A stretch of 64,000 nt of DNA, taken from Azolla caroliniana (lineage: Eukaryota; Plantae; Polypodiophyta). Location of the stretch: NCBI GenBank assembly GCA_043228905.1, contig JBHGNT010000002.1, forward strand, positions 3,100,001 to 3,164,000. Direction: 5' to 3'. Numbering within the stretch: the stretch's first letter is position 1; each line of letters starts with the position of its first letter. The position numbers and the translations under genes are program-made. A model generated the notes under the pieces. The model ran no database searches. It was not told the origin of the DNA and saw only the letters and a list, made by a program, of their open reading frames with translations. This document shows positions 620 through 37,740 of the stretch, piece by piece.

Positions 620-2087
620 CCGACTCTCTTTGCCGTTCGGCCTCTTCCCGCTGTGATGGCACGCCGCCGTGCGCCTTCCTCCTAGCCTTCTCGGCTCGCT
701 CGTCATCCAGCCGTTGGCATACCCTTCCGAATTTCGACTAGTCCTCCATAAGGCCATTTGCTCTGTCCTCGTCTTCGAGCTCAATCCCGATGGCCTCCCG
801 TTCCGCTCGGTCGATCGACTTAACGAACAACAGGACTTTGTCTGCCCCCACCAAACCTTGTTCCTGCTCCGGGAGCCGAGCAAGCCGTCGTTGGAACTCT
901 CGGAACGCCTTCGTTGCGCCCTGGTGGGTCTTCGCCAATGCAACCCACTTGTCGAAGCCGCGTCGTCCCCGGCTCTTCCGACGTCCTCCATATGCCTACA
1001 GGTGCGCCTCTTCGAAGGCCTCCCACGAACTATGACCTTCTCGTAGCTCCTTCACTTTTGCGTGCATACGAACGACGAAGACCCGACAGAAGAACTCTAG
1101 CCTCAACGCCTCGTCTACGTCTCGCTCCTCCATTTCCGCGTTGTAGGCTTCCAAGTAGAATGGGACTTTGTCCCCATTGAAACGACCGACTCTTTCGACC
1201 ACTCATTGAACAGCTCGTTGCGCCGCCTCGCTTCTTGTTGTTGCTCGACCAAACTCCCTCACCGCTTAGACAAAAAGTTGTGCGATGTCGTCTTCTTCCA
1301 ACTCCATTCTCCCTTGCCACCTATCACATCGGGTTCACCAAATATGTCGCGTTGTTACGCGTGTGTTGGTAGAAAGGGCGGGACCACGGGGGTCTCGGAC
1401 GAGGGAGAAAAGGGATGCCAAGAAAACCGACTCTGGACACGTTCCAGAGGCTACCGAACACGAGAGAGAGAGAGAGTGAGAGCTTGTGCGCAACACCGAC
1501 TCCAATGTACAAAAATAAAGGGGGTAGAAAAACTCGGCACCATCAGAGATGCGGGTGTGCACAACCAAACATATATATATATATTACAAGAAGAAGATAC
1601 AACCCTGGCTTCGAGTCGGACCTAGGAAGCTCAGGACACAATAGTTGTCTACTGCCAAGCCGTCTGTCGGGGAGCTCTCGGGCTTGTTGTGCCGAGCGAG
1701 GTCTTGCGCAGGAGACAGGGCCGAAACAGAACTGCTAGATGCCAGGACTTGCTCACCCCAAAATGACGAAGAAGAAGCAGAACTAGATGAAACCCTAGGC
1801 AAGAGAAAATAAAGAAAACAAGAAACTAACTTACTTCGAACCTAACGGTATACCCTCCTAACTCAAAATGGGCAACCCCTCTCTACAAGGGACCCTCGCT
1901 TCCTTTTATAGAGCAAGGAGAGGAATGCGTTACAATGTGGGATAAATCCCGACTTACATGGGATTCTCTGTCCCGACTTAACTCCTATTTATTCACATGT
2001 TTTTACAAGGGTAAGTGCATATGGTGCACTCCACCGATTCTTTCGATATTCCCCGGTTTCTGACCATGGCCCAGAATCTTCACGACA
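620..2087 (-). mobile_element. Gag-only LTR element copy A1, 5' part: 5' LTR 1345-2087, PBS ~1324-1340, decayed gag ~1300-620
   Basis: TG..CA LTR homologous to the other A LTRs. TGGTGAACCCGATGTGA follows it on the minus strand. Peptide RFNGDKVPFYLEAYNAEMEERDVDEALRLEFFCR. Confidence 0.85.
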
Positions 2088-3718
2088 ACGTGTTCTCGTT
2101 CCCGGCCCCCCGTTGTGCTGTCTTCCGCTTTCCTTGTTCGGCACCACCTGTGCCAAACACCGTCCCGTACTCATGCTTCGCTTTGGCCCTTGATGGCTAC
2201 ATGCACGTCTTCCATTTCGCTTTCGGGTGTGCCCTTTCCGGCTCGACACACCGCTCCTTAACCGGGTGTCCCCGACAACTTACCGTAAAATCACCCTTGC
2301 CATGTCCCGGCTCGCATGGCTTCCAATCCGTTCACGTAACGCCTTGGGTGATCGGTGCGTCTGTTGTTGCCGCCTTCGTCCCCTTGCCGCCACCTTCCAT
2401 TACCCTCAGTCTCACGTTGCCACGTTGGCCGAATAGTCGGGGTCTCCGAACAGGTGTGAAGGATCCTTCTCGGCCTTCATCTTGTTGGCTCACCGACTCG
2501 TGTACCAAGCACGTCCAATCTTTGTCTTGCCAACTCTGTCGGTCGGGTCCGTATCCGGTTTGTGGCCGTCTCGCTGGCCTCATACCTTTCTTTGCTTTGC
2601 TTCCCTTCATCCGATCACGTTCTGCTTCCCTTCTCTCTAGGTCTCACGCCGGCACTTTGTCGCCAGTAGCCGGAGTCTCCGGATTGGTGTGAGTGTCTTC
2701 AAGGGACCTCCCCCTTGTCGTCTTCGGTTGCCCGCCTTGCCGTTTTCCTCTTGCCGTAGTCCCGACCTCTACGTCGGCCTCTTCTGATGGTCACGTTCTT
2801 GCTGCCACCGTTCTCTCCTATAGGACTCACGTCAGCACTCGGGTTGACCGCCGGATCGGTGTGAGGAACTTCGTAGAACGCCCATCCGCAGTCTTTCGCC
2901 TTCGTCCCCTCGCTGCCACTGTTCGTCACTCTAGGTCTCACGCCGGCTCTCAGGCCAACCGCCGGAGTCTCTAGAACCGGTGTGAAGGATACTCCTCGGG
3001 CTCGTCATATCTCTGACCCTTATCCTGGGTCATCTTTCTCCGCAAGTCAAGAGGGTGGCTCGCTCCACACCCTTTCCCGTGGTACCGACGTACTGTGTTC
3101 CTGGTCTCTCCATAGGCCCACTCTCTCCTCCCTCCCGGATCAGTTATCCGGAAGTCCGCTCTGCTCGGTTCTCGTCCGGGTTCGTCCGTCATTCTCTAGA
3201 TTGCCGGGTCCCATTCTCCTACCGCCATTGTTAGTATCTTGGTCTTACGTCGAATCCGATGCCGACCTCCGGAGTCTCTAGATCCGGTGTGAGGTGACCC
3301 ATAGGACCGGTCTTCGCTCTCCGCTTCGTCCCTTGTACTTCCCCCGAACTCGTCGTCGCTCTCCTTCTTGTGCTCCCGCCTCCATCTTCCATCTCTTTCG
3401 GTCTCACGTTGGCACGCTGGACGAATTTCCGAAGTCTCCGGTCAAGATGTGGGGACACTGATTTCGTAACAACTCCCGATGACTCATCCGGGGCCACCGA
3501 CCCTTTTAGTGGTGTCGGTGGAAAGCATCCGCTCTATGATCGATCAAGCCCCGCCTGGGCTTGATTGTCCAATGTCTGGAGTTTCGACTCCGATGCCGAT
3601 TCTGCCGGACTCATTCCGTACCCTCGATCATTTCCCTTTCCATTCTCGACCTTCGCATGGTTGGTCTTTCTCCCTATGTAAAAGAGGGTGGCTTTTTCCG
3701 CACCCAATCTCGTACCGG
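2088..3718 (-). mobile_element. Internal hairpin-array segment of a family-A element (A2), host of A1 and A3
   Basis: Colinear with the arrays at 14.0-16.7 kb, 25-27 kb and 57.6-59.4 kb. Repeated CTCACGCCGG...CGGTGTGAGGA units. Confidence 0.8.
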
Positions 3719-4336
3719 TGTCACGAAGTTTCGTGCGTGCGTGTAGAAGGGCGGGACCACGAGGGTCTTGGACTAGGGAGTGACGGAGCATAGGAAGTCG
3801 TGCTTCACCATTTCCGGGGCATCCCAGAAGCACACCGGAAGCAACCGAAGGGAGAGAGAGAGAGAGAGAGCAGGCACGCAACATTGACTCTCTGTTGCCT
3901 CTTAGGAAACAGGGTCTGTGGTTAGTCCTTCGACCTAGACCCCAAGGTGGGTGTGGAACAACGAACAGAGCTTAATCGTACTACGTAAGGAGGGAACCTA
4001 TGTGACTCCGCTATGTGTAAGGGGAGATGGCTACAACCGACTCCTTCTCATAGGTTGCGCTTATGTACTACACGATTACGTATCCGAGACACTAACACTG
4101 AATTAGCCGTAGCTATACACAGAAACTCAGAGAAGATAGTATTCTATTATCAGGCGTTCTTTTTACAATTCCCAGAATTTACACACACCTCCTTACAAGG
4201 TTTTCTGCCCTTTATATATGCAAGGTCTAATTAGCTGTTCACGCGTACCCGCTTGAACCGTTACATACGTTACGCTTTATATAGTTTCTTATTCCTACGC
4301 TTTTGGCCGTCGGTTACTATTCCGGCGGACAACACC

Positions 4337-4352
4337 TGGCACGCCTGTGGGA
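4337..4352 (+). promoter_or_regulatory. Inverted PBS-like motif TGGCACGCCTGTGGGA at the PPT position of element B
   Basis: 2 nt from the 3' LTR. The first 9 nt are identical to the element's own PBS. No purine tract abuts this LTR. Confidence 0.7.
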
Positions 4353-4381
4353 TAGTGCCTTTGCACATCGGACCCATCCCG

Positions 4382-7314
4382 TTAATCTTCTTCCAAAATG
4401 CCTCGGATGTTTGGCTCTGTTGTGGTGTCCTCGGCCGGAGTTGATGTAGGGCCCGTAGGAGCATCGTGGTGCAGCTCCTCTGCTTGGTCGGCCTGGTTTG
4501 TCCCGGAGTCACCTTCGCCGTGTGCGGGTGGTCCGGGTACGGTGGGCTCTTCTTGAGTTCGTGGACTGGGCTCCGCCGGTAGGGTGCTTGCCGTCGGCTG
4601 CTGCTCTGCCTCTATTGTTACGTCCTCCGCGGTGTTGGCCGTTTTTGTGTGTCCCTGGGCGTGGGGAGGGGATTCCACCTGGTCCGCACTATTTTCCACG
4701 TTTTCTGAAGATGGTGTAGGCTGGACCTTTTGTTGGTTAATCGTTTCGCTGTCTGGTCTTGTGGGGAACTCCGCTCGTTCGTCCCTGCTATTCTCCTCCG
4801 TTGTCCTCGCTGGTGATCGGTCCTGGGGTTCCTCTTCTTCGGCTGGGCCTGGAATTGGTGTCTCGCTGGGTTCCTCGTTTGTATGTGTGTTGCCGGTTTG
4901 TGTGATCTGGTGAAATAGCTCCTCCTGACTTTCACCAAAATTATCTAAGAGTTGTGTGAGTTCTTCGGAGTGTTGGTCTGCTAACGTGCGATAGTCTTGC
5001 GCTAGGTCCTCCTATACGGTCGCAATGCTCTCCTCATTTAGCTTATAAAACCCTCGGTCGTCTTTCCGCCGGTTCTCCTAGTCCGCACGATACGTGTGCA
5101 ATTCCGCTGCTTGGGTTGCCCACGCTATCCATCCTTTGTCCAACGCCGTTTTCAATTGCGATGTGAACCTTTCCCGGTTGGTTTGGAGAAGGATGCGCAC
5201 GTTATCCGTGATGGCCTGCCAGCAGTTGCGTCTTCCATCGACTTCTGGAGATTTGCGATTTCCTACTGTTTAACGGCTGCCGCTTCCTCATACGTGGCCT
5301 TCAGGCCCGCCCACAGCTGAGATTCCTTTTCATGCTGTTTTTCTAATTTCCCCATTTCATTGTTTAGGCAGATTTCGAGTTGATGCCGTCTGTCTTGTTC
5401 GACTACCAACTGTTCATCGAACCATACCTTCTTTTTCTCTAATAAGGCCCGAAGTCCCGCTATTGCCGCCTCTGATTTCTTGGCGTCCTCTCGTAATTGG
5501 GCGTTGTCGTCTTTTGTCCGGATGTGTTGTGCCACCTCCGTAGCTAGTTTCTCTTCAAGCGTTTTTACGGCTTTTCGTCCGTTAGCCCGTATCTCCTTTT
5601 CTCTGTCGGAGGATTGGTGTAGCTCTGCTCGAAGGCGGTCAATTTTGGATTCCGCTAGTTGCACGGCCCTTTTTGCTTTTGAGGCGATGGCGGTCTGAGC
5701 CTCGATTTCTTCTTTGCGAGCGTCGATAACGTGGTTCGGTGGCTGGGTTTCGTGTTGCGCCGTAGTTGTATGAGCTTCTAACTCCGCAATGCGTGCGTTG
5801 TCCTTTTGTAGTTCGGCTTCGGTCAGTTTAACCTTCTTCCAGACATTCTTATTTTTTATGGCCATCTCCTTGGCACCTGTGCTGACCTTTGCCAATTCCC
5901 GATGGACTTCGACTAGGGCCGTGTTTAAGGGTGGTATCTCCATCCCTACTCGCCGTACCCCAGCGTTCCTCTGTCTGCCAACCCTAGCCAGCTGGTCCTC
6001 ATCGTTGCTCTCCGTTGTTTGTGTTAGGGCGCGCTCTATCATTTGTTGTTCTGCATGCTCCTCGGCCATGCGTTGAGCGGGTTTGACCTGTTGTGCTGCC
6101 AGGAACTCCATGAGCTTGAAAGAGGTCCCGAACTGCAAGAGGGCACTGAATTCGTGGGCCGTATCCGGAATATCCGGATATGCCAAAACCTCGCTTTCCG
6201 CCGTCAATACGGCTTTCCCTCGCTGGGACCGAGTCGTAATAATCAGCCACGGCTCCCGGATGATTTCGAAGGTGGTATTGGGCTCTGCTGTTGCGGGGCC
6301 TTCGCCTGCGGTTGGTGCCTCCGGATCTGTGGGGGCATTTTTTACCATCCCCCACCCATCCTTTCTGTCCAATCTACGTCGTTTGGGTCTAGGGCTTTCC
6401 CCTCGTGCTTCGGTGGCTGGTCTGGGGCAGCCTCCATGGGGTGTCTCGGCTATTCCTCCTGCGTCGCCTGTATATCCGGTTGGTCGGTAGGAGGTGTTGT
6501 CCTTGGGTCTAGTTGGGCCGGTTGGGGTTCCTCCTCCCATGCTGGGGCCGCTAATTCCGCTAACCTGCGTTTCGCGGAGCGGGGCGGGGCCGTGGGTTGG
6601 CTACTGGGCTGTGGTGCTGGTAGACCTCGGGGTGGAAACAGTACCGTAAAGTATTGTTGGATGATTGGCCTGAGCTTTTTGCCTGCTTGGTACGCATGCA
6701 AGCCTTCCCATAACGCCGGCCCTGTGATGACCCCCCAGTCGACTGTACGCCCCTCAAAGGTGTCGATAATGATGCCCGCCTTCTGTTTAGGCATCCCGTA
6801 AGCATTGACATGGACGCAGCCTACTTCCAGTAGGAACTTGGCCACTTCACGGAAGAAGGGATCCGGAATCTGTTTTGTTCGGCGGAGGATGAGTATGGGC
6901 AAAATACCGCTGCAGCGCCTCTGTAGGAGGTATTTTGAAATGTCTTTCGCCTAGTGAAGATAGGTCTAACTTCCTCCGAATGGAAGAGTTTGTGACTGTG
7001 TCGATGTTAAGCCGCCTGGCGATGTCCATGGCGTCCGGGTGCGGAGGTGCTTCTGCGACCCGAATATAACCATCCAGGCGCTTCTCCACGAGCCATCGGC
7101 GTAGGGCAGTAGAGATGAAGATCGGCATCGCCAGGGTAGGTTCGTGGAGAGGCGACAGGTAGTAGTGGTGAGTTGGAGCTCTGAGATGTGATGGGGAAGA
7201 AGGTGAGGAGGAGCGATGGGAGCGTTGATAGCTAGACGTTGTGTTTCTGCTTTGTGCAAAAAACCTTCTATTTCCTTCTTTTTGTGGCTTAGGGTTCCTT
7301 GGGCGGTGAGCCAT
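4382..7314 (-). pseudogene. Extra sense-strand ORF downstream of pol in element B, frameshifted: globular N-terminus, long coiled coil, Pro/Thr/Glu-rich tail
   Basis: Consecutive ORF pieces 7314-6847, 6902-6450, 6540-5263 (425 aa, E/K/A/L heptad-rich) and 4699-4382, all inside the LTRs. Confidence 0.7.
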
Positions 7315-7439
7315 TGTGGTGCCGCGTGTTCTTGAACTAGGATTTTGTGCATGCCTTTAGTCGTTTTAATAGTCGCTATCTTCTCTCTTTTTTATTTTTC
7401 TTTTTTTCCTAAAGGTTAGTTACCCCTTATTTTTACATT

Positions 7440-10400
7440 ATAGTACAATTGGGCCTGTCCCTTTTACGCTGCAGCGGGTTCTCCGGCTTTGTCACGTTCG
7501 GCAGTGAATGGGTTAGGTGGTGTAGGGCCTAGGTAAGGTTTGAGCCGAAACCCATTCACTTTTTGCCGTACTATTTCTCCAGCCAGTGTTCCTAGTCGGA
7601 ACGTGCCCTGTTCCGCTCCAATTATCCAGTATGGGCCGGTTCAGTGGAAACGTAGCTTACCCGGCATCTGGCCCATGCATGTTTGAAAAACTAGCACTGC
7701 TCGGCCCACGACGAACTCCTTTTCCCTTGCGCTCTGATGCTGATCGACAAATGCTTTACGCCATCGCTGTTCTTCTTCCAACACAGCCATGCTGTGGACG
7801 CGTTTCTCCCCTAGTTCGAGGAGTTGGTAGAGCCGTTCCTCCTCTGACTTGGCTTCTAATAATCGGTTCCGTACCTAAATGCGCAAACTAGGTACCCGGA
7901 ATTCAATCGGCATTACCGCTTCTAGTCCAAACGCTAGCCGGAACGGTGTTGACCGTATGCTTGTTTTGTAACTAGTTCTGTACGCCCATAATGCGCTCTG
8001 GAGTTTTGGTATCCCAGTCCGTTCAGTTTTTATTGACGGTTTTCTTTAAAATGGTCTGTAAAGTTTTGTTCGTGGATTCCGCTAATCCATTCGCCTGCGG
8101 GTAGTATGGCGTGCTTTTCTTGTGGACGACTGTGTAATGCTGTGTTAGTTCCCGAACCACTGTATTGAGGAAGTGCCTCCCCTGGTCACTAATGACCTCA
8201 ATCGGGCAGCCGAACCGACACCAGATGTGCTCGTACAGAAATTTGGCTGTGACGACCGCCGTATTTTCCCGTAGTGCCTTTGCTTCTACCCATTTGGTAC
8301 AGTAATCCGTGGCTACCAATATGTATTTGTTACCCGTACGGGCTGCTGCTGGTGTGAAGGGCCCCACAAAATCCAATCCCCACATTTGGAAGGGGTCTAG
8401 TGGTAGCACGGGCTAGTGTGGCATCCTTGCGTCCTCCGCGGGCTGACCCATCCGCTGGCACAAATCACACTTTCTACAATACTCGGATGTGTCCTTCTGT
8501 GTTGTTGGCCACCATAAGCCCGCCTGCCATACTTTGCGGGCTGTCACGTTGCCTGCGTAATGGCCGCCGGCCGTGCCGCATTGTGCCTCCCGTAACACTG
8601 CTTCTTTTTCATCCTGACGGACTCCTCGTCGCCAAATGCCGTCACTTCCTTTGTGATATAAATACCCTTCGACCAGGCAGAAGTGACGGCTTCGAACGGC
8701 TAGTCGTTTCTTCTCGTCTGTGCGTAATTGTGGTGGAGGTAGTCCTGTAGTCAAAAAGTACGTCATTTCCATAAGCCATCGATCCGGAAAGGTGGATTCT
8801 GTTTTTTTTGCAATTGTCGCTACTCGCCAGATGTCGGCGTCCGGAAAATCGTCGTCGTCTTTCTGTACTGTTTCTCCACTCACAAGTCTACTCAAAAAAT
8901 CCGCCACTGCGTGTTGCGTCCCTAGCCGGTGCTGAATTACGAACTCGAATTCCTGGAGCAGCAGCATCCACCGCGCCAATTTCCCTGTCAGGGCTTGTTT
9001 CTCTACCAAATACAATAATGCCGAATGATCTACGTGGAACGTGAATTTCTGTCCTAGTAAATAATGTCGGAATTTATTGATGCTATAGATCATCCCTAGC
9101 GCCTCCCACTCTGTTGTGGAATAGTTACGCTCTGCTGCTGATAATTTACGACTTGCGTAGTATACTGGCCTGTACCAGTTTGGTTCGGTAAGTTGCATTA
9201 GCGCGCTTCCTATTGTTGTGTCCGAGGCGTCGACGAACACGTGAAATGGTATCGCCCAAACTGAAGGTTGTACTACGGGGGCCTGTGTAAGCATTATCTT
9301 AAGTGCCTCATATGCCTTATCCTCTGTTGCAGTCCATTGAAAAGGAGTCCGATGTACGGCAGCGTGTAGTGGCGTGGCGAAGTCCGCCAAATACCGTATC
9401 ATCCGACTATGCCACCATATTTGGCCCAAAAACCGACTAAGTGCTTTGGCATTTGTCAGAGTTTTAGCTTGCGTAATAGCGGAGATCTTGTTTGGGTCGA
9501 CCGCTATTCCTTCCTTGCTGACTATGTGGCCCAGGAGAGCCCCGCTGGTCACGCCGAATGCACATTTCGCGGGATTCAGGCTTAAGGGTGCAATGCGGCA
9601 ACGTTCCAGGCAAAGACGTAAGTGCGAGAAATGGTCTTTTGTTCGCCCATATACCGCAAAATCATCTAAAAAGAATGTATTCCCCAAAGATCTCCGTAAT
9701 CGTTCGTTGGAATGTTGCCGGTGCTGTCTTTAGGCCGAACATCATGATGACCGCCACATATACTCCCCAGTCCGTGACAAATGCCATCTTCTCCTGGTCG
9801 TCGGGGTGCGTGCGCACTTGGTTATAGCCACTGAAGCCATCTAAGAAACTGTACATCTCATGGCCTGCGACGGCGTCCAGCACGCTATCAGTGAAGGGTA
9901 AGGGAAATGCATCCGTAATGGTTACGACGTTTAATTTTCGGTAATCCATGCATACCCGTATTTTGCCGTTTTTCTTTGGGACAACCACTATCGGGCTAAG
10001 CCATGTCGGTTGTTTTACTGGTCGTATGAACCCAGCCCTCAGCAGCTTGTCAATTTCTTCTTTCACACGGGTCGCGTAATTGGGGTTCATGCGGTAGCGA
10101 CGCTGCTGGACAGGTTTCGCGTTCGTTGCTAAATTGATCTTATGCTGATAGAACTTGGGATCTAACCCCTTCATGTCCTCATGAGCCCACACGAACACAT
10201 CTTTATATTCTGTGAGTAGTGCGATCATTGTGGTTCTCTGGTCCAGCCTCAATTCCTTTGCTATGGAGAGGAACCGGGGTTCCGATCCTGTACCCACATT
10301 CACTTCGTCGAGAGCGGAAGCGGTGACCTGTCGTGAAATCTCCATTTCCCTTTCGGAGGCCGCCCGTGCTCTGCTAAGTTCCAATATGGACTCTGGGTTT

Positions 10401-10990
10401 GGTTCGTACGGCTCTTCGCTCGGAACAATGGCCGTAGTATATTCTGCCGCAATTGCGATGACATCTATCTCAAACAGCGGAATAATCCGAGGATGTTCGT
10501 CAAGGTACGCTTCCAATTCGGCATCCTCCACCCTAGGTAGCATATTGATGTCTTCCGCATATAACGGTGTTATCCCCTTAGGTTGGGGCGTGTTGCCTCC
10601 TGTAGGAACACGAACCTTGATGTGTTCCTACCGAAAACTGATACACTCGTGTTGCCAGCTCTGCTTGATATTTGCTGTCCGAAGCCATGGTCTGCCCAGA
10701 AGCACTGGGTACGCTCCAGGCGCGTCCAAAGCGAGGACGACCGCCGATATGTCGAAGCGGTGTCCACCCACGATGATGCCTATTTTGCGAATTAGCCCCA
10801 ACGGCCGCACTGATTGGGTATCTGCCATGCGAAGCCAGAATGGACATGCCTCCCATTCGGAAATGCCCAGCTGTTCGCAAGTTTTCGCGCTAATCACATT
10901 GACGCCTAAGCCGCCGTCGATTACACATCCAGGGACTTCCTGTCCGTGCAATATTACTGTAATGGCCGGGTTGTGTTAATCTACCACTGG
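7440..10990 (-). pseudogene. pol: pol of element B: protease, RT, RNase H, integrase with GPY/F motif (frameshifted)
   Basis: CVIDGG; KNGKIRVCMDYRKLN; YSFLDGFSGYNQV; FLDD; VFVDAS...YYASRKLSAAERNYSTTE; WGLDFVGPF...YYPQANGLAESTNK; GPYWI. Confidence 0.93.
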
Positions 10991-10999
10991 TGGTCCCTC

Positions 11000-12562
11000 G
11001 CTGACGTCAATCAGGTTTGTGGCAACGCTTGCCCCGGTCATGCCCACCACCTGTGCTTCCATGGTCTGGCGGAAACATGGAACTAGCTGTAGTAGTTTTT
11101 CCATAGTTAGCGTGATTTCACAGCCCGTTAACACCTACCAAATGGGGTCCGGCCCCAGTTTTTCGTTCTCTGTTTGCTTCATTGCATTCGCGGACTCCTG
11201 CCTCATACATTCCGTATTGGCCGCGTTTGCTTTTTCCACCCAGGCTTGGGCTTGTCGTCGTACCTCGTCCTGCGCAGCCCAATCCACCGTTTTCGTTTGC
11301 TGGCATGTGGTGACTTGTTGCACCTCCGCCATAATCGTGTTGACGGCGGGCCCCTTTCCCTTGCGTGCTGGGCATTGTGTGGCATAATGTCCGGGTTGCT
11401 AACAAATAAAACAGTGGATGCTTGATTCTCCCTTCTCAGCCCCACGTGGAGTGTGCCATTCTCCGGGCGCTACTTGCTCTTTGCGGTCCGGCCTCGTTTG
11501 TCGAGACGTACGCGGTGGCTGCTGTTGATCCTGGTGCCGCTCATCCCCCGACCTTTCGTCGTAACGCCGGTGATCCCTATATTCTTGAGGCTTACCTCGA
11601 TAGCCATTGAAGCCGCCCCGTTTGTTCATCGGGCGTTGATGTTCGTATCGCCGGCCTCCTTTGGCGTAACTCGGATGTCCACGATAATCCTCGTCCTCCG
11701 GGTCCTCCTCCTCGGACTCGTTGTGATTCCGGCGATTCTGGGTGTACCTGTCCTCCCGCGGGTTGCGATCCTTATACCGGGGTCGGTCTTCTTGCCTCCT
11801 TTGTTCCACCCGATGTGGTTGCCGCTGTGTGTCCACAGTGCGGATTGCGGGCGTGGCTCTATTTAACATATTGTACTTGCATTGGTCAACTGTGTGAACC
11901 TTCGAGTGGCAGATTGGGCAATGGATTCGCATATTGAACTCCACCGCGGAATTCCCCGAGTTCAAGCAAATCGTACACTGGATTGCCTGACGAAATTGGT
12001 GTTCCTCATCCTGGGGTAACGGTTGTCGTAAGGATGACATCGAGAACCTCTCCTGCTCGTCATCCAACTCGAGCTGTAACGCTCGTTCAATCACCATATC
12101 CGCCGTTTCCCCTTTCACGCTATTGCTGTTGAGCGTTGCCTTGATGGGCCGACGTAACGCTGCCAGAAATGTTTCCCGTGCCTCCTCCTCCTCGGGGCTT
12201 CGATCTAGTTTCCGTCGTAAATTTTGGAACCGTAAGCTGAAGTCTGCTATTGTCTCAGTCAGTAGTTGCTTAATTGTATAAAACTGCCCAAGAATCTCGC
12301 GTTGTGGAACCCTCCGGTGAAATAAACGCAAGAAGGCGGACTGGAGCTGATCGAAGGTTATTATGGCCGGTCAATCCATCTGTGAATGCCAGAACGTCGC
12401 ATGCCCATCTAATGTTAATCCGAACTCCGTCATTTTCGACTAGTGTGCCACCATCTCGGAAAGGTTTTGTGCCATGTGGTTCGCATTCCAAACGTTCAAG
12501 AACATGCGAACATGAGTTACGGCGTCGGTTTCGCCGTTAAAGCGGGGGTAGGCAAAGGCCAT
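11000..12562 (-). pseudogene. gag: gag of element B with zinc knuckles
   Basis: MAFAYPRFNGE; ETIADFSLRF (major-homology-like region); CPICHSKVHTVDQC; CFIC*QPGHYATQC. Confidence 0.85.
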
Positions 12563-12831
12563 CGTGGGAGCTACGGTGGATCGGAGAAGGTCACCGGGAG
12601 GCTGCGGTAAGCGTGGTCCCCTCACCTCGTTGAGGTATTTGGGGAGCAAGGACTCCTCTTTGCGCTCCTGGCAGGTATTACTGGGGTCGCCGATGCGTGG
12701 CTTTTGCGAGAGCGTTCTTTTGCCTGGCGTGTGACGGACCTTGTTACTGGCCGGTCTTGTCTTGTTGGTTCTCTGAGTCGTCTGCGGCTAAACATCCATT
12801 CGTTGTTGCTCGTCTGTGAGGAAACACAGAT

Positions 12832-12845
12832 CACCGGGCGTGCCA
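12832..12845 (-). promoter_or_regulatory. Primer binding site of element B, tRNA-Arg-like (TGGCACGCCCGGTG)
   Basis: 4 nt after the 5' LTR. Complementary to ...CACCGGGCGTGCCA, resembling the plant tRNA-Arg(UCU) 3' end as recalled. Confidence 0.8.
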
Positions 12846-15285
12846 AAAGTGTTGCCTCTTAGGAAACACGGTCCGTGGTCAGTCCTTCGACCTAGACCCC
12901 AAGGTGGGTGTGGAACAACGAACAAAGCTTAATCGTACTACGTAAGGAGAGAACCTCTGTGACTCCGCTGTGTGTAAGGGGAGACGGCTAAAACCGACTC
13001 CTTCTCATAGGTTGCGCTTACGTACTACTACGATTACGTATTCGAGACACTGACACTGAATTTGCCGTAGCTATACACAGAAACTCAGAGAAGATAGTAT
13101 TCTATTATCAGGCGTTCTTTTTACAATTCCCAGAATTTACACACACCTCCTTACGAGGTTTCCTGCCCTTTATATATGCAGGGTCTAATTAGCCGTTCAC
13201 GCGTACCCGCGTGAACCATTACATACGTTACGCTTTATATAGTTTCTTATTCCTACGCTTTTGGCCGTCGGTTACTATTCCGGCGGACAACACTCTCGCA
13301 CACACACACAACACCGACCGAACTCGCACCCTCATGTACATAAGCAAGAAAGAAACGCTAAGACACACACACACACACCAACATAGACACGAATATGCAC
13401 AACCAAATGTATATGTATTTACAAGACAGCGAGATTCAACACCGACTTCGAGCCGGACCTAGGTCGCATAGGATACAACCGTTGTCTAATGCCAAGCCGC
13501 CGGTCGGGGAGCTCTCGGGCTTGTCGCGCCGAGCGGGGTCTTGCACATAGTACAGGGCAGAAAACCAAAACGCTAGATGCCAAGGCTCGACGGACAGAAG
13601 GACGAAGAAGAAGTAGAGGAGAGCAAGAAGAGACCCTAAAACCAGAGAAGAGAAAGAAAGGAAAGAAAGAGAGAAAGAGGAAGAGAGAACGTCTCTTCAA
13701 CTAACGGTATACCCTGCTAATACAAAAATGGGCAACCCCTTCACAAGAGGCGCTCCCTTCCTTTTATAGAACAAGGAGGGAGATGCATTACAATGTGGGA
13801 TAAATCCCGACTTACATGGGATTCTCTGTCCCGACTTGACTACTCTTCGGCGCCATAAAGGCGCCCTCGTTATTCACACTAAATGTACAAGGGTGAGCGC
13901 ACATGCTGCATCCCGCCGATATAGCCAATATTTCCCGGTTTCCGCCTTTGGCCGAAATTCTTCACGACATCCGCCCCCACCAAACTGCACGTTCACCGCT
14001 ACGTGCCAAATCCGGTGAAGGGTGAGAGATTTCGGCCGGTGAGAAACTGGTCAACCGTAATCCGCAACCCGGCTCGTTGCCGGTTTGAATCATCGGCTTC
14101 GGTTCTTCCTTCGCGCTTACCTGCTCGTAGGCTCGTTTGACCCGTCGATGGGTCCTTCACAGCGATCTCCGTAGTACGCGTACTTCCGCTGGCCCTTGTT
14201 CGGCTGTATGCATGCCCCGCTCTCCGCCGTATGCCCGATGTCCTTCGCTTGAGGAATGCCCGTAGTGGTCCGCTTGGCCTCCGTCGACCATTCGTGTTGA
14301 CATGATTGCCGTCCCATGTTTCACGTTGCCTTCGTCCTCCCTGCCGCCACCTTCCTTCTCCATGGTCTTACGTCGCCACGTCGGCTCGAACCGCCATGGT
14401 CTCCGGAACGGTGTGGAGGATCCTTCTCTGGCCTTCTACGCACTACCTCCAAACCGCGCAACCCATCTTCGCGCTCGCCTTTCCGCTCTAGCACCTCCGT
14501 GTGCCGCATACCCTCGTCCGTTGTTTGGCACTGCCTGTGCCGCACTCCGGTTCATTGCACGGCTTGTCGGCCCCTTTCCCGTCCAGATTGTGCATCGCCG
14601 CTCATCCGCATACCGGTGTCCTCTGCACCCGAGGAGCACCCCGCACTAGCCTGCTTGGCCGTTTTCGTCTTGCGCTGCTACAACAGATCCTGAGTCTTTC
14701 GCCCCCGTCTTACCCATTCGCGATCCGCTATCTCATGTCACCGGGTCTCGTTCCCTACCGCCACCATCCTTCTCCCTAGGTCTCACGCTGACTCCCGTTA
14801 GCCGGCTGCCGGAGTCTCCGGATCGGTGTGAGGGTCCCATAGGACCGGACTCCGTTTCTCTGCTTGTTGTTCGGGTGTCTTCCGTGTAGCCGGGTCCCGC
14901 CTTCGTGTTGCCGGGTCCCGTTTCCCGCCGCCACCAACCCTCTCTCTCGGTCTCATGTTGCCACGTTGGCTGAACTGCCGGAGTCTTTGGTTCGGTGTGG
15001 GGATCCCGTAGGACCAGACTTCCTTATGCCCACTGACCTTGCCGGAAGATCCAAAATGGTCCGTAGTCGCCTCATACCTCCTTGCCGTTCGTCACTTCCT
15101 GTCTTCCGATAATGTTCACTTGCCGCCACCGTCCTTTCCTATAGGACTCACGCCGGCTCTCGGGCTGACCGCCGGATCGGTGTGAGGATCTTCGTGGGAC
15201 CTCGGTTTGCCCGCCTTGCCACCACCACCGCCCGTCGCTCTAGGCCTGACGCCGGCACTCTGGCCAACCGCCGGAGCCTCTAGGG

Positions 15286-15901
15286 TGTCAAGATTCGAAC
15301 TCTTGACACGACCATGTTATAATCTAGTATTATGAGTTAACCAAGATATCTAGTACTAGTTATGTATGTAATTGGTCGTTATTATTTTGCTAGCATCATG
15401 TGCATAGTTGCTCCCTTGTAGTATTTACACTTGGCACATGCATGCATACCTACATGCTCTATTGTAGATTCACATGCGTGCAACAAGTATGACTGCCATG
15501 TAGTATAAATAGAGGAGTTCACCTTCAAGGAATTCAAGGTGAACAAACTGTCACGGATCATAAACTCAAGAGACAAGCAAGAAGATAACCAAATGGACAA
15601 GAAAGAAGATAGTATTAAAGGAAAGACTCCATAACTGGTGTTGTTCACCTTGAATTCCTTCAAGGTGAACTCCTCTATTTATACTACATGGCATGCATAC
15701 TTGTTGCACGCATGTGAATCTACAATAGAGCATGTAGGTATGCATGCATGTGCCAAGTGTAAATACTACAAGGGAGCAACTATGCACATGATGCTAGCAA
15801 AATAATAACGACCAATTACATACATAACTAGTACTAGATATCTTGGTTAACTCATAATACTAGATTATAACATGGTCGTGTCAAGAGTTCGAATCTTGAC
15901 A
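15286..15901. mobile_element. Foldback/MITE-like element, 616 bp, 261-bp TIRs (15286-15546, 15641-15901), TG..CA ends, TSD TAGGG
   Basis: Arms are reverse complements with ~3 mismatches. TAGGG at 15281-15285 and 15902-15906. AT-rich island inside the GC-rich A3 array. Confidence 0.92.
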
Positions 15902-16758
15902 TAGGGACGGTGTGTGTAAGGTCGCGGCACAACCGCTTGTCTCCTCCGCCGCCACCGTTAGTATCTTGATATTACGTCGACCGCGTTGCCGACTGCCGAA
16001 GTCTCTAGATCCGGTGTGAAGGATCCTCCTTGGGCTCGTCGTATCTCTGGCCCTTATACTGGTTCTTCCTTCTTTCGCAAGCCGAGAGGGTGGCTCGCTC
16101 CACACCCTCTCCCGTGGTACTGACGTACCGTGTTCCCGGCACCTCTTCGTAGGCCTCCTCTTCCTCCCTCCCGGAATGGTTATCCGGAAGTCCCCTCCGC
16201 CCGGTTCTCGTGCGTCATTCTCTGGATTGCCGGGTCCCATTCTCCTGTCACCACCGATCTCTCCTATAGGACTCACCCCGGCACTCGGGCTGACAGCCGT
16301 ATCGGTGTGAGGATCTCCGTAGGACTGGTCTTCGTTCTCCTCTTCATCCTTTGTACTTCTCCCAAACTCATCATTTCCCTCCTTCTCGCGTACCCGCCTC
16401 CATCTCCCATCTCTCCAGGCCTCACGCCGGCGCTCGTTGCCGGCTGCCTGGGTCTCCGGATAAGACGTGGTGTTTCCGTCTCGTAATGATTTGCAGACGC
16501 TTGTTCGGGGTACCACTCCCCAAGCACGTTCGGTGAGGAGCCTTTGGACTTCGATCGATCAAGTGCCGCCTACACTTGATTCTCCAACGTCCGGAGTTTC
16601 GGGCAGCGGTGTCCGAAACCTGCTAGTCTCTGTCCGCAACCTCGATCGCTAGCCTCCCGATTTGCGGCCTCCGCCTGGCCGGCTTGTGTCGTCATGTAAA
16701 AGAGGGCGATTTGTTTCGCACCCTCTTCCGCGCCGACACTATTGTACCGAACCGAGCC

Positions 16759-17937
16759 CTACCGATCGGGCTCTATAGCCCGTCCCTGGTCTTTCGCGCC
16801 TTGGGCCGGTTTCGATCGAGTCATCCACATTCGGATCATGCTCCATCCGAATCGGAATGCCAATCTTTCCGTGCCGCCTCCGTCCTTGGCCTCCTCGCAC
16901 GCCGTTTCCCATCCCTCTTCGTTGGCATCCTGCCAGGACTCCTTGTCGGCGCCTTCCTTCTCTCTGGTATCATGTGGGCACACGGGCTCGACCATTAGAG
17001 TCTCTGGAATCCACGTGGAGGGCTCTTCTCCACTCCCGACCTTGTCCTCGGTCGGCAATTCTCCGCAAGTCGAGAGAGCGTTTTGTTCCGCACCCTCTCC
17101 CGTGGTACAGTGGTACCGATCTTCCGCCATTACGTGGGACAAGTCCGTCTCTTCGGTCTCGGCTTGCGGCCTCGATCTTTCCTCTTCCTCGAGCATTGCC
17201 TCGAGAGCTGCGTACGCCTCCGCAATCCAGGCCACAACGCCGACCCTTGCCGACTCTCTTTGCCATTCGGCCTATTCCCGCTGTGATGGCACGCCATCGT
17301 GCGCCTTCCTCTTAGCCTTCTCGGCTCGCTCGTCATCTAGCCGTTGGCACACCCTTCCGACCTTCGACCAGTCCTCCGTAAGCCCATTAGCTCCGTCATC
17401 GTCTTCAAGCTCCATCCCGATGGTCTCCCGTTCCGCTCGGTTGATCAACCTGACGAACAATAGGACTTTGTCCGCCCCCACCAAACCTTGTTCCCACTCC
17501 GGGAGCCGAGCAAGCCGTCGCTTGAACTCTCGGAACGCCTTTGTCGCACCGCGGTGGGTCTTTGCCGATGGTACCCACTAGTGGAAGTTGTGTCGTCCCC
17601 GGCTCTTCCGCCGTCCTCCATATGCTTGCAGGAGCGCCTCTTCAAAGGCCTCCCACGAACTATGAGCTTGTCGGAGCTCCTTCACTTCCGCGTGGATACG
17701 GACGGCAACACCCTGACAGAAGAACTCCAGCCTCAACGCTTAGTCCACGTCTCGCTCCTCCATTTCCGCATTGTAGTTTTCCAAGTAAGATGGGACTTTG
17801 TCCCCGTTGAAACGGCCGACTCTTTCGACCACTCGCTCAACCACTTGTTGCGCTACTTCTTGCCTCATCACCACTCGTGCCGACTCGAACACCATTTCGG
17901 CCACCATCTCCGCGAGGTCGTCGTCTTCCGACTCCAT
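16759..17937 (-). pseudogene. gag: gag of A3 (internal stops)
   Basis: Homologous to the intact 433-aa ORF at 59597-60898. Confidence 0.8.
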
Positions 17938-18470
17938 GCTCCCTTGCCGCCCTTTATGTCGGGTTCACCAAATATGTCGCGAAGTTTCGCGCGTGTGTGT
18001 AGAAGGGCGGGACCTCGGGGGTCTTGGACTAGGGAGTGACGGAGCGTAGGAAGTCGTGCTTCACCATTTCCGGGGCATCCCAGAAGCACACCGGAAGCAA
18101 CCAAAGGGAGAGAGAGAAAGAGAGAGAGCAGGCACACAACATTGACTCTCGCACACACACACACAAGACAGACCCAACTTGCACCCTCATGTACATAAGC
18201 AAGAAAGAAACACTAAGACACACACACGTACACCAACAGAGACACGAATATGCACAACCAAATGTATATGTATTTACAAGACAACGAGATTCAACACCGA
18301 CTTTGAGCCGGACCTAGGTCGCATAGGATACAACCGTTGTCTAATGCCAAGCCGCCGGTCGGGGAGCTCTCGGGCTTGTCGCGCCGAACGGGGTCTTGCA
18401 CAGAGTACAGGGCAGAAAACCAAAACGCTAGATGCCAAGGCTGGACGCACAGAAGGACGAGTGCGGAATC

Positions 18471-21400
18471 ATTCTTTTCTTTAGCAATCCATATAAAGGC
18501 TTGGCAACATGGGCGTAGTGCGGAATCCAGATATGATAAAACACGCATGCTCCAAGGAACCTTCGAACCTCCGTTTGGTTTATGCATTCTTCTTTCATAC
18601 CCTTGATCGCGTTCACCTTGGATGGTGAAGGCTTCTGGCTGTATGCTCCTGCACAAATGACCTACCACCAAGATCTCTGGCTGCCCAAATGCGGATTTTT
18701 CTCCCGAAAATGTCAAATTCGCATCTTCGAGCCTTTGGAGCACATTCTCACAATCTTTCATATGATCCGCGACGAACTTTCTAAACCCATCCTTATCTTT
18801 CTCCTCATCCAAACATCCTTTTATTTTAATATAATCCAAGAATGGCATTGTGATGTCCAGGATGCAATCCTTCAAAACCTTGTTCATGGCATTCACCATA
18901 TGAGCCACCGAGTTCATTGCACCTTGAGGTAAGGTACACATCCACACGAGCCCGATTGGAGTCCTCATGATTGTAAGGTCATGACTGTCGATCGCCAACT
19001 GGAATTGGTCATATCCAGAGTAGAGATTGCCAATGGAGTAGATGGACCACCCCGCAAACACTTCGGCAAATTCGTCCACGCTCGGACCGATTCCAGCTTT
19101 CCGAATTGTCACCTTGTTGACGGGTTGAAGATCTTGGATGAATCGCAATGATCCATTCTTCTTCGGCACCATGAACCACCTATTAGAATAAGGAGCATTC
19201 GTCGGTTCCAGAATTCCCATATTCACCTTCTCCTTTAAGAGCTCGATCAACTTCGGTAGGTGTGCTCTCGGAACTGGTATCGGTTTCAAATTCCAAGGTA
19301 CGTGCGGCACCGTGAAGATCACCATCGGCTCTATTGTCCTTGAATCAGCACATCCGATTTCTTGTGGGAAAAATGCGAAAGCCTTCCGATGTCTCTCAAG
19401 CATGTCGCGAAAGATTTGCTCTTCTTCAGGGGGGAGGAAATCCTCCCTTCCAACTCGTAGCTTTCCCTTCGTCTCTTCGGTGAAGACATGACCTATTGTC
19501 TTCGGATCTCTTAAGCTTGGATCATTAGCGACTTCCTTCATCTTTTGCCAGCTATCTTCTGGTAGTGGAACTGCAACTAGCTTGATCTTCTTATCCACCG
19601 TTTTATATTTTGTGTTGATGTCAGCTTCCTTCATCAAGATGTTTCGATGATATTCATCGATGATAGCATACATGTTGATGGAGTTAACCGAAATCACGTG
19701 ATGATTGTGAAGATAGCTCAAGTCCACGACTTCTTCGATTTCGCCGATGGTGTCATTAAATGAGGCTTCTTCCATAATATGAGTCACGAACTCTTCTTAT
19801 TCTATTATGTTTTCTTCTTTCCGCATCTTCTCGAAGTCTTGTATCCGACGCTTCTCCTTTTTGTCGAGTAGTACTAGTTTACATGCGCCACTAGGTGTGA
19901 CACATGTTGCTTCTCCTCGCAATCCACACACTCTATTTTCTTGTGGGGACTTGTGATTGCTCAGACTATTTGTGCCCCATGCTCTAATAGTCCGCTCTAA
20001 AAATCCGGGGATTCGCCTCCGAGACTATCTCGATTTCTTTCATGATTAGCTCGCACCGTTAGGAATTGAACAGATCTTTGATTGTCAAGACTCTTGATTC
20101 GCGCGAAGGCTGCTCCATTATCGAACACCTTGGTCTCCATCTAGGATGATGTGATATACAGTTGTCCTAGGATGATAGGATGCGACGTCGATTCTTGCAG
20201 GAAGAAGTGTTGATCCATCTCCACATCCCCGATCGTGACTTTAACATTGGGACAAGCTCCGTACAAGTCCTTCGTAGACTTTGTTGCAGCTCGAATCTTC
20301 CATCCGTGGTTTGTATTGGTTGGCCATCTTCCTTTTTTGTAGAACTTGGTTGACATGAGGTTGATCTCTGAGCCATGGTCCATCAAGGCTACCACGGTCT
20401 CATTCCTCTCCCTGATCTTCACCGGCGTCTCCATTGTTGCTCGTGCCCAATGAGGTCGAGTATAGTGGTTGTCCACCATATCTTCATCGACTTCGTCCCT
20501 TGCCATCGTTATGACATTTGTTTTTGCTTTTTGTGGGTTGTCTTCTTCCTCGTCCGATTGTTGCCTCTTTCTTTTTACGAGGTCCACGATCGTGTCATGG
20601 AACTCCTTCTTCGTAATGCCGAGTAATTCCCTCAAGGACAAAGTCATGTGGCTATCAAGAACGCGTTCCTCAAGAATCTTCTTCAGGTCTGTTGTCTGCT
20701 CTATGTCCGACCTTAGCTTATAGGTAGGCATAGTCCTTATCTTTTGAGCGTGGTCTTCGACACCAACCTTCACGGGCCGAACTGTTTCTTCGACTCATTT
20801 GCTCGACTCAGTTTGTAAAGGTCGACTCGTTTCTGCATCTTCTTTCTTTTGCGTGTTTCTTGTTTCATGTCTTTTTGATGGGCCTTGCTCTTCTATTCTT
20901 TTTCTCATTTCTTCGACGAACACCTCGTGGTTGTCGCACATCACTTCCGCGAGTATGGTGTTGTCATCCACCTGATCCGACCACCCAGTTATGCTTTGAA
21001 TGCTTCGGTCTGCAAACTCTACCTCGTTCGATGTGACCTTCCCCATCTTCTCATACTTGAGAACAGAAGACCAAAACTTTGCTCCCACTCTAGCAGCTTC
21101 ATTTTTATCTTTTCCGACTCTAATTCCAGCCGTGGCAGTATAGTGCATCGCATCCACATGAGTCGCCTCAACATCTTCCATAGATTTCTTCATTCCCCCT
21201 CTTCCGAAATTCACCTGTAGGGGTCTTCAAGTTTCAGTCGAGCAGATCATATTGTCATCCATGTAGACGATATTTTGTCGGATCGCCTCTCGAAGGCTCG
21301 TGCAATCCCTTCTCATGTGGTCCATGCTATCGCACCACACACATCTAAAGGGTTCTTTTCCTTTGGGCCCCCGATGATTCATCTTGGCTAGCGTGACCAT

Positions 21401-24165: not shown

Positions 24166-24611
24166 TGTTGAGAGACAAGCTCAACATCGGCCAGATCGGC
24201 TGAAGAAGCCAAGGACCGGATCGGTTGGGACCGATCGGTTAGGCCGAATGCGTCAACCGGTACGCAGACCGGTGCGTAGGTAGGACCGGATCGGTGCGTA
24301 AACCGGGAGGCCGTTAGGAAAGATATTTCGTGAGGAATATATTTGGGAGTTAGTGTAGGAGCTCTTAATGAGCATTGAAGTACGGTCAGTACTTCGGTTA
24401 GTCCTTCGAGGACTTGTATAAAAGTGTTCATGGAACACACATATGTATAGAGTCATGAGTAGAGATTTGAGTATTGTTTTTGTTGAATATAGTTCTTCTT
24501 TCTCCCTCTGTCTCTCCCGCATATATTGCGTAAGCTCAAGCTCTCCATTAAACCTGAGTGTTCTTCCTTATGTTCTGTCTTCATACTTGCTTCCGCACGC
24601 TACTTTCTACA
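24166..24611 (+). mobile_element. Solo LTR (copia-like), TSD TAAAC
   Basis: TGTTGAGAGACAAGCTCAAC..TTTCTACA. TAAAC on both sides. Absent from the sister LTR at 29072. Start resembles LTR 239-619. Confidence 0.88.
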
Positions 24612-29001: not shown

Positions 29002-29052
29002 CGAAGAAGAAGAAGAAGAAGAAGAAGAAGAAGAAGAAGAAGAAGAAGAAGA
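29002..29052 (+). repeat. (GAA)n microsatellite expansion in the A5 5' LTR
   Basis: About 17 units, versus about 6 in the sister LTR at 24123-24140. Confidence 0.9.
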
Positions 29053-36299: not shown

Positions 36300-37740
36300 G
36301 TTGATGAATAGTAAAAAGGTTATGGTTAACACTTTGTAATTTATTCTCCCCATATTGTTTTAGTTCTAAGATATACCTACCTAGTCTCTTTACACTCGGG
36401 GTATCAAATAGTTTGGAGAGGTGTTGCCTCTTAGGAACACGGTCCGTGGTCAGTCCGTCGACCTAGACCCCAAGGAGAGTGGGAACAATGAATAGACCTT
36501 AAGCATACTACGTAAGAAGAGAACCGTTGTGGTTCCTCCGTGTGTAAGGGGAGATGGCTACAACCGACTCCTTATCACAGGTTGCGCTTACGTACTACTA
36601 CGCTTACGTATCCGAGACACAGACACTAAATTAGTCGTAGTTATACACAGAAACTCAGAGAAGATAGTATTCTATTATCAGGCGTTCTTTTACAATTCTC
36701 AAAATTTACATGCCCTCCTTAAGAGGTTTTCTGCCCTTTATATATGCAGGGTCTAATTAGCCGTTCACGCTTCCCCGCGCGAACCGTTACATACGTTACG
36801 CTTTATATAGTTTCTTATTCCTACGCTTTTGGCCGTCGGTTACTATTCCGGCGGACAACAAGAGGGTGGGAGAGGGTCCTAATATGTCTTGGTATTCCGC
36901 CTGTATCTCAGCATAAGTTGGGCACGTGCATGTGAAGTGATATGCATCCTCTATCTCTATATGACATAACCTACATAGCCTTTCCTCTCTAGGGACTCTA
37001 TTAGCCCGACCATTCTCAATCTCAAGTTGGTGAGATGATATCCTAAGTTGTCCAATGGCCACCCTTAGTGCATTTGATAAGAATGTATCTAGATATTTTG
37101 GTCGTGTAATAAAACCTAACTTAGAGAAGTGCAAGAAGTGATAATTATAGTACAACATTTTCGATGGGAGTGGCTCCCGTGGGGTGCTCCATTTATATCG
37201 AGTGTAAATTTGCCATATTTCTTGGCGTATCACTTTATTACGGGTCTTCATGAGAGATTAGAGTTTGAGCAATCCCATGGTTGTACTTAAGGGGAGGTAG
37301 GTTATTAATGTCTATGCCGTTTGCAAGTAACCAACTCACCACAATGTTACACCAAGAGCTAGTGTCTCCAGACGCATGTAGGGATCGGGATGCCTCAAAG
37401 GCTCGACGGGATATCCTATCATGTGGTTGACTATGTATCCGATGAATAAAAACTACCACTTGAAAGAGTGCTTCTACTAACATCGGGGGTAGATTGAACT
37501 TTGCTCTAATAATGTCATGTGGTACCGTGGATTTGCTTCGGAGTTGACGTGATAACATCGTCACCAAAGGTCTCTCTAATTGCGTCCACATGAAAGAAGG
37601 TAGACCTGGAGTCCATACTACTGATGCATAGATGAGGGAAGGGGTCACTAATGAGTCGAAGAGCCATCCCTTAGTCCGTGGCTCTTGAAAGTATGCCTGG
37701 TGGCATTGTCTCTCTAAGAGTGAGAGGAATGCATACTGAT
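36300..37740 (-). mobile_element. 5'-truncated non-L1 LINE fragment (RTEX/L2/CR1-group-like C-terminus)
   Basis: LFDSLVTPSLIYASVVW; QLRISSHQLEIENGR...ERLCRLC...EDAYHFTCTCPTY. The reading frame continues across the solo LTR. Confidence 0.75.
36422..36860 (-). mobile_element. Solo LTR of family B, TSD AGAGG
   Basis: Homologous to 3893-4334. AGAGG at 36417-36421 and 36861-36865. Confidence 0.95.

What the first reader, a model, noticed from the sequence alone, without database searches (positions are those of the whole stretch)
4335..4400. LTR retrotransposon with a second, inverted PBS (tRNA 3'-end mimic) in place of a polypurine tract
Seen: element B is transcribed on the minus strand and has a normal PBS (TGGCACGCCCGGTG, 12845-12832). 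Before its 3' LTR the sense strand reads ...TCCCACAGGCGTGCCA-GG-TGTTG(LTR), with no PPT. This mirrors the 5' end (GGCGTGCCA-AAAG-TGTTG on the opposite strand), so both internal LTR junctions follow the same 9-mer ending in CCA. A hairpin GGGAT..GTGC-AAAG-GCAC..ATCCC lies just upstream. Known: LTR elements normally prime the plus strand from an RNase H-resistant PPT. The motif matches ~15/17 nt of the tRNA-Arg(UCU) 3' end (TCCCACCGGGCGTGCCA, recalled). Inference: possibly a symmetric mechanism in which tRNA anneals to minus-strand cDNA and primes the plus strand too. Alternatives are that the mimic pairs with the PBS (RNA circularisation/self-priming), or that this was a one-off tRNA capture. 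Only one copy is visible.
Basis: partly seen in the sequence, partly recalled or inferred. Interest (0 to 1): 0.85.

Follow-up and report, generated by a model that had tools for sequence, protein, structure and literature searches.

The report
tRNA copy replaces retrotransposon purine tract
A lineage of plant (likely fern) jumping genes has no purine tract to start its second DNA strand and carries in that exact place a conserved, hairpin-interrupted copy of the 3' arm of an arginine tRNA, which likely lets a host tRNA start the second strand as well as the first.

Summary
Observation confirmed and extended. Element 3893-13292 (minus strand) is a decayed non-chromovirus Ty3/gypsy copy with direct LTRs and a 5-bp TSD. 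It has no PPT. Two bases before the 3' LTR sits a sense copy of tRNA-Arg(UCU) nucleotides ~49-76: CCA included, one C missing, and a 13-14 nt hairpin inserted at A58/G59. This is not a one-off. No variant was listed inside it in four public runs (40 of 100 rows shown). In a metagenome scan 19 of 122 loci carry the same shortened form beside mostly unrelated LTRs; six are placed directly at the 3' junction. The inner stem covaries (0/500 shuffles). A complete CCA-bearing tRNA-Arg(UCU) captured by one relative supplied the real tRNA sequence. Best reading (0.5): tRNA anneals to minus-strand DNA through a ~27-nt two-part site and primes the plus strand. Main rival (0.3): the element's own tRNA-like RNA piece is the primer. 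Sequence cannot separate these, and nothing was shown biochemically. Nine literature searches showed no description. This scan has noted the same structure on other pieces of this genome, and a similar one in a fungus (unreviewed AI notes).

The parts
3888..3892 (.). Target-site duplication CTCTC (other copy 13293-13297)
3893..4334 (-). 3' LTR, 442 nt, 95% identical to the 5' LTR
4335..4336 (-). 2-nt spacer between CCA and the LTR (GG here; GG or TG in 18 of 19 short-form loci)
4337..4353 (-). Sense copy of tRNA-Arg(UCU) nt 59-76 with CCA, lacking one C (about nt 66); on minus-strand cDNA it reads as a PBS
   Evidence: family-wide
4354..4367 (-). Inserted hairpin at the A58/G59 position; structure conserved, sequence free (compensatory changes)
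4368..4377 (-). Sense copy of tRNA nt ~49-58 (5' strand of T-stem and T-loop)
   Evidence: not part of the search pattern
4382..5011 (-). C-terminal piece of an extra sense ORF; its acidic end motif is shared with L036, L105, L127, L151
5263..7391 (-). Further pieces of extra 3' sense ORF(s), no Pfam match; homologues in L105 and L060
7644..10975 (-). pol (PR, RT, RH, INT), broken by stops and frameshifts; no aRH or chromodomain match
11138..12787 (-). gag, in pieces
12808..12829 (-). Hairpin directly after the PBS, then a 5-mer complementary to the tRNA T-loop side; same layout in L105 (possible two-part PBS, post hoc, 2 families only)
12832..12845 (-). PBS, 14 nt complementary to tRNA-Arg(UCU); 4-nt spacer 12846-12849
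12850..13292 (-). 5' LTR
36422..36860 (-). Solo LTR of the same family (90%), TSD AGAGG

Best explanation
This gypsy lineage has replaced the polypurine tract with an inverted tRNA-Arg site, and a host tRNA-Arg(UCU) likely anneals to the freshly made minus-strand DNA there and primes the plus strand two bases before U3. Shown: no PPT; the site's position and conservation; its identity to tRNA nt ~49-76; the covarying inserted hairpin; a whole tRNA-Arg copy captured by a relative. Inferred: RNase H clears the RNA; tRNA nt ~49-57 and 59/61-76 pair with the DNA on either side of the looped-out DNA hairpin, a three-way junction at the A58 position (m1A58 does not pair normally; recalled); RT extends the CCA end; RNase H later cuts the tRNA off. 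The site is always recopied from the element's RNA, so its match to tRNA would be kept by selection alone.
For: Fixed position: spacer of 2 nt in 18 of 19 short-form loci, where plus-strand priming defines the U3 end. The upstream tRNA block was not in the search pattern, yet 164 of 204 cells are identical to the tRNA, including the T-loop-equivalent T, C and G that are unpaired in the RNA hairpin (14-16 of 17 each); flanking columns 1-21 have no base above 10 of 17. Inner stem: structure kept, sequence free (4 pairs with double-sided change, covariation 0.256, 0/500 shuffles). Co-folding the L036 tRNA with the minus-strand copy gives the three-way junction in the 3 cases printed. Net energy is -14.9 to -28.3 kcal/mol, and the full site beats the 3' block alone in 15 of 17 rows (RNA parameters as proxy). 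The captured tRNA in L036 indicates that this tRNA is the lineage's primer and that RT can read through all of it.
Against: No biochemical or cDNA-end data. A tRNA on DNA is an RNase H substrate, and in HIV-1 non-PPT RNA primers are suppressed by RNase H and NC (PMC2665208 passages). The 1-nt deletion weakens tRNA pairing and is kept: all hairpin-type loci have it, and 0 of 103 full-length forms had a GG/TG spacer. Position 59 covaries with the inserted hairpin instead of tracking the tRNA (5 of 17 not G). The wobble asymmetry favouring minus-strand pairing (18 vs 2 cells) is not significant once base make-up is allowed for (18/170 vs 2/34). The conserved loop bases also fit a T-loop fold in the RNA (recalled consensus). 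The 3' block was fixed by my search pattern, so its invariance across families is by construction.
Confidence: 0.5

Rival explanations
1. Built-in tRNA mimic as primer: the element's own RNA segment survives RNase H, refolds as a T-arm-like hairpin with a 10-nt hybrid tail ending in CCA, is cut after CCA by the specificity that removes the tRNA primer, and primes the plus strand like a PPT.
For: The sense RNA folds into T-stem plus inner stem in the alignment (single folds -8.6 to -21 kcal/mol). The conserved deletion costs nothing here. Pair 34-48 covaries within the molecule. A 10-nt tail is PPT-sized, and Ty3 RNase H is positioned by distortions 10-12 bp upstream of the cut (PMC5371799 passages). 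It keeps the standard logic of an RNA primer made in cis.
Against: The outer stem shows no compensatory change, although its 3' side was fixed by the pattern. It needs RT to recognise the tRNA sequence over ~27 nt, which is not shown for any RT that I read about. No 5' acceptor strand is conserved upstream.
Confidence: 0.3
2. The motif pairs with the PBS to circularise or dimerise the RNA (or primes the minus strand in Tf1 fashion), and plus-strand priming uses some unrecognised non-purine fragment.
For: PBS-mimic pairing is favourable in silico (-18.9 and -18.4 kcal/mol). 5'-3' bridging through tRNA sites is known in Ty3 and Drosophila gypsy.
Against: The mimic conserves tRNA nt 49-62, which the 13-14 nt PBS does not complement. 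The family PBS differs from the mimic's complement at two positions. It does not explain the fixed 2-nt spacer. L036 shows a real tRNA copied at the PBS position.
Confidence: 0.1
3. The tRNA-like DNA 3' end of the finished minus strand folds back onto the inverted site and primes the plus strand as DNA.
For: The two sequences are complementary over 9-11 nt.
Against: It would give a covalently joined, inverted LTR. The LTRs here are direct with a TSD, and no such joint or loose end was listed at the PBS junction (list cut).
Confidence: 0.05
4. One-off tRNA capture or copying accident without function.
For: Whole-tRNA capture does occur in this lineage (L036), and the window copy is dead.
Against: Family-wide in four runs, in families with unrelated LTRs, and with compensatory changes.
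Confidence: 0.02

Closest known systems
Ty3 of S. cerevisiae and canonical Ty3/gypsy replication (PMC5371799, passages)
   Same: gag-PR-RT-RH-INT order, direct LTRs, tRNA-primed minus strand. The PBS is not regenerated from tRNA in Ty3, which would explain the stable PBS mismatches of this family.
   Different: Ty3 primes the plus strand from a 12-nt PPT. Its second tRNA-binding segment is complementary to tRNA on the RNA; here the 3' site is tRNA-sense on the RNA and replaces the PPT.
Plant non-chromovirus lineages Athila, Tat (TatI-III, Ogre, Retand), Phygy, Selgy (Neumann et al. 2019, PMC6317226; passages and Additional file 5)
   Same: No chromodomain, 5-bp TSD, extra 3' ORF. tRNA-Arg PBS as in 30% of Retand, 64% of TatIII and 89% of Ogre.
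   Different: No aRH (so not Tat). PBS type unlike Athila (Asp/Asn/Ala), Phygy (Trp) or Selgy (Ala). In my tree it forms its own clade with two Adiantum proteins, apart from angiosperm and Tat-like rows. No PPT.
Drosophila gypsy with 5' and 3' tRNA-Lys2 binding sites (PMC1635307, passages)
   Same: [quoted passage not shown]
   Different: The gypsy 3' site binds the anticodon/T stems on the RNA, does not involve the tRNA 3' end and is dispensable for cDNA synthesis; a PPT is depicted in that genome.
Self-priming Tf1/Tcn1/TAR elements and half-tRNA priming (PMC6317226, PMC5371799, passages)
   Same: Precedents that LTR elements can change primer type.
   Different: All concern the minus strand. 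None of the passages I read describes a change of the plus-strand primer.

Membership tests
Ty3/gypsy LTR retrotransposon | Direct LTRs with TG..CA ends and TSD | tested here: met
Ty3/gypsy LTR retrotransposon | Domain order gag-PR-RT-RH-INT | tested here: met
   (PR below the Pfam cut-off, E 0.002)
Ty3/gypsy LTR retrotransposon | tRNA-complementary PBS after the 5' LTR | tested here: met
   14 nt complementary to the tRNA-Arg(TCT) of L036
Canonical PPT-primed LTR elements | Polypurine tract before the 3' LTR | tested here: not met
   the Copia control has one
Chromovirus | Chromodomain at the integrase C-terminus | tested here: not met
   No Pfam chromo match in the INT-proximal pieces scanned or in relatives; window copy broken
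Tat (TatI-III, Ogre, Retand) | Additional archaeal-type RNase H | tested here: not met
   RH is followed directly by the INT zinc finger (P0009 and P0012); separate from Tat-like PBS loci in the tree
Athila | Clusters with Athila in RT-RH phylogeny; tRNA-Asp/Asn/Ala PBS | tested here: inconclusive
   Own clade (SH-aLRT 100, 39 rows) apart from angiosperm rows that I take to be Athila-like; no REXdb-labelled references; quick tree only; PBS type differs
Phygy / Selgy | 4-bp TSD, short element without extra ORFs, tRNA-Trp or tRNA-Ala PBS | tested here: not met
   5-bp TSD, 9.4 kb, extra ORFs, tRNA-Arg PBS
tRNA-primed plus strand (proposed) | tRNA covalently attached to plus-strand strong-stop DNA | not testable with these tools
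   needs VLP cDNA or an in vitro assay

The most novel reading that the evidence does not exclude
A whole clade of fern-associated gypsy retrotransposons primes both DNA strands with host tRNA-Arg, using mirror-image two-part binding sites (tRNA 3' end, hairpin, T-loop complement), one on the RNA and one on the minus-strand DNA: LTR replication without any polypurine tract.
Probability: 0.45. Interest if true: 0.92.

Novelty: new variant of a known kind. Interest (0 to 1): 0.82.

Why it matters
PPT priming of the plus strand is treated as a near-universal step of LTR retroelements and retroviruses; known variation in priming concerns the minus strand. A high-copy, multi-family clade without a PPT shows that this step can be replaced. 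Under both leading explanations (0.8 together) the primer is tRNA or tRNA-like, which makes testable how RT and RNase H choose, extend and remove RNA primers. It also matters in practice: PPT-dependent annotation would mis-score or mis-orient these elements, and a single inter-PBS primer could amplify them from both ends (inference).

Tried and rejected
No whole genome is held for this window, so full-length copies could not be collected. IMG/VR pattern scan: 34 single hits, taken as chance, none scoring above 20 bits with the covariance model; integrase scan of viral contigs: none. Rfam: nothing near a gathering score at the junction. The covariance model found no second such site in the window. 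The records behind five short loci were not held, so their other junctions could not be read. No RNA holder was listed for the element; this is no evidence on expression. Wobble asymmetry as a test between tRNA-on-DNA and RNA mimic: not significant after allowing for base make-up. The extra ORF has no Pfam family and the Atlas look-up gave no result. Literature searches listed no description of an inverted PBS or tRNA copy replacing a PPT; one search was swamped by other meanings of 'PBS', and subscription journals are not covered. Additional files 1 and 3 of PMC6317226 were too large to read and may list such elements. Rows left out of alignment A1: L125 (no inner hairpin, 1-nt spacer), L132 (near-duplicate of L059), L143 (same contig as L142, cut short). 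PMC12220202: abstract and outline only, not used as support.

Full report
1. Observation. The element spans 3893-13292 with direct LTRs (442 and 443 nt, 95% identical) and TSD CTCTC; a solo LTR with its own TSD lies at 36422-36860. gag, RT, RH and INT domains are on the minus strand in gypsy order, broken by stops and frameshifts, followed by extra sense ORF pieces that end at 4382. The PBS follows the 5' LTR after 4 nt. Before the 3' LTR the sense strand ends in a tRNA-like CCA plus 2 nt; the nearest purine run of 10 nt or more is about 500 nt upstream. A Copia element in the same window has an ordinary PBS and PPT.

2. It is family-wide. Contigs of four runs (organism A in two studies, organism B, a leaf metagenome; one may be the window's own source) were laid on 4200-4560: 1582, 1264, 1406 and 237 contigs. 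Summed depth over the junction is 1.3-2.1e5 in X1. No variant or indel is listed within 4337-4352; 40 variant rows were shown and 60 weaker ones were not. Neighbouring 4353 and 4367 differ from the window together (85% and 90%), as a pair would. Only sequences at least 80% alike are laid. LTR ends with other flanks appear as loose ends of low agreement (0.39), as expected for host DNA. At the PBS most depth differs from the window copy at 12836 and 12837 (97%, 88%), both changes allowing wobble or normal pairing with tRNA. In Ty3 the PBS is not regenerated from the tRNA (PMC5371799 passages), which would let such mismatches persist.

3. It is lineage-wide. Of these, 103 carry the full-length tRNA complement with spacers of 1-5 nt. 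Where pol lies on the inner side it points away from the motif in 9 loci, as for an ordinary PBS; L087 is an exception, with a pol 6 kb off pointing towards it. The other 19 carry the form that is one base shorter; 18 of them have a 2-nt spacer and come from one series of ENA assemblies. Their LTR starts mostly do not align with each other (10 pairwise hits). Six are placed directly at the 3' junction: L105 (INT core 82% identical, then extra ORFs, motif, LTR, PBS), L049 and L116, and L036, L127 and L151 by the shared ORF end. None was placed at a 5' junction; the other 13 could not be oriented.

4. What the motif is. ARAGORN found a complete 76-nt tRNA-Arg(TCT) with CCA in L036, antisense to the element and joined to its 3' ORF about 460 nt before the motif. 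I read this as a primer tRNA copied whole in an aberrant plus-strand transfer (inference; the host of L036 may differ from the window's). Against it the motif is tRNA nt ~49-76 with a 13-14 nt insert at A58/G59 and one C missing (numbering by the standard scheme, recalled). In 17 aligned sequences (16 of the 19 loci plus the window) the inserted stem covaries (4 pairs, 15 cells, score 0.256; 0/500 shuffles; slid controls at most 0.064), while the outer stem does not. Related rows inflate such counts, and by eye the changes amount to a handful of independent events. The upstream tRNA block, which was not in the pattern, matches the tRNA in 164 of 204 cells. The 3' block was fixed by the pattern.

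5. Lineage. A quick RT-RH tree of 92 rows puts the element in a 39-row clade (SH-aLRT 100) whose only named members are two Adiantum proteins, apart from angiosperm, liverwort and Tat-like rows. The host is therefore likely a fern (inference). With no aRH, no chromodomain match, a 5-bp TSD and a tRNA-Arg PBS, it fits none of Tat, Phygy or Selgy as tabulated by Neumann et al. (PMC6317226 passages and Additional file 5); its relation to Athila is open.

6. Mechanism. The U3 end of an LTR is set by plus-strand priming (established; PMC2665208 and PMC5371799 passages), so a motif at a constant 2 nt from U3 is most simply the priming site. On minus-strand DNA it is a two-part tRNA-binding site. Co-folding predicts pairing of the tRNA's last ~27-30 nt with C66 bulged and the hairpin looped out, with energies like those of the PBS (-14.9 to -28.3 versus -20.4 and -16.3 kcal/mol; RNA parameters as proxy). 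The PBS itself is followed by a hairpin and a 5-mer complementary to the T-loop side in both families where I could read it, and its one common variant (12809, 43%) keeps the pairing; this is post hoc and thin. I give tRNA priming 0.5. The rival, that the element's own refolded RNA fragment is the primer, explains the fixed deletion and the pairing at position 59 better, and gets 0.3. The wobble test did not separate them. RNase H attack on non-PPT primers is a difficulty for both. PBS pairing alone (0.1), DNA fold-back (0.05) and accident (0.02) fit worse.

7. What is known. Second tRNA sites at the 3' end of Ty3 and Drosophila gypsy bind tRNA on the RNA and serve or accompany minus-strand priming. 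Nine full-text searches listed no tRNA copy in place of a PPT; subscription journals and two large supplements of PMC6317226 were not seen. Earlier AI notes of this scan report the same structure on other pieces of this genome (8 shown of 51 notes fitting the look-up) and a similar case in a fungus; they are unreviewed and not counted as support.

8. Verdict. The feature is real and conserved, and I found no description of it. It is a new variant of the Ty3/gypsy kind whose plus-strand priming step would be new under either leading explanation. Interest 0.82.

Noticed in passing
L036:1190-1265: Whole mature tRNA-Arg(TCT), with CCA, captured antisense inside a deleted member of the lineage; it suggests RT read-through of the entire primer and a route by which the mimic arose.
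   Followed up: partly
window 12808-12845; L105:5517-5555: The PBS is only 13-14 nt and is followed by a hairpin and a 5-mer complementary to the tRNA T-loop side in two families: possibly a two-part PBS mirroring the 3' site.
   Followed up: partly
window 12836-12837: The window's PBS matches the tRNA perfectly, while about 9 in 10 of family depth carries two other letters; the minority forms may be tRNA-templated corrections.
   Followed up: partly
window 4382-7391: Extra sense ORF(s) between integrase and 3' LTR, no Pfam match, with a conserved acidic C-terminal motif across families.
   Followed up: partly
window 46507-51814: Copia element with 96.5% identical LTRs, a 1037-codon open frame, tRNA-Met PBS and a normal PPT (used as control).
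   Followed up: yes
window 15286-15901: 261-nt inverted repeat, 99% complementary, 94 nt between the arms, inside a dispersed repeat.
   Followed up: no
window 620-3892, 13293-18460, 21963-33190, 56815-61675: A long dispersed repeat family in many nested copies on both strands, into which the element inserted; it lies next to an RT and DUF4100 fragment at 18291-20794.
   Followed up: no
window 38521-39276 and 55202-55904; 41795-44691; 53689-54933: About 750-nt inverted copies (90%) flanking two LINE-like RT regions.
   Followed up: no
L125:301-320: Short-form motif on a 365-kb contig, with a T-stem-like 5' block but no inner hairpin and a 1-nt spacer; chance or a distant relative.
   Followed up: no
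L087: Full-length PBS-type motif with a pol region 6 kb upstream pointing towards it; probably a neighbouring element, not checked.
   Followed up: no
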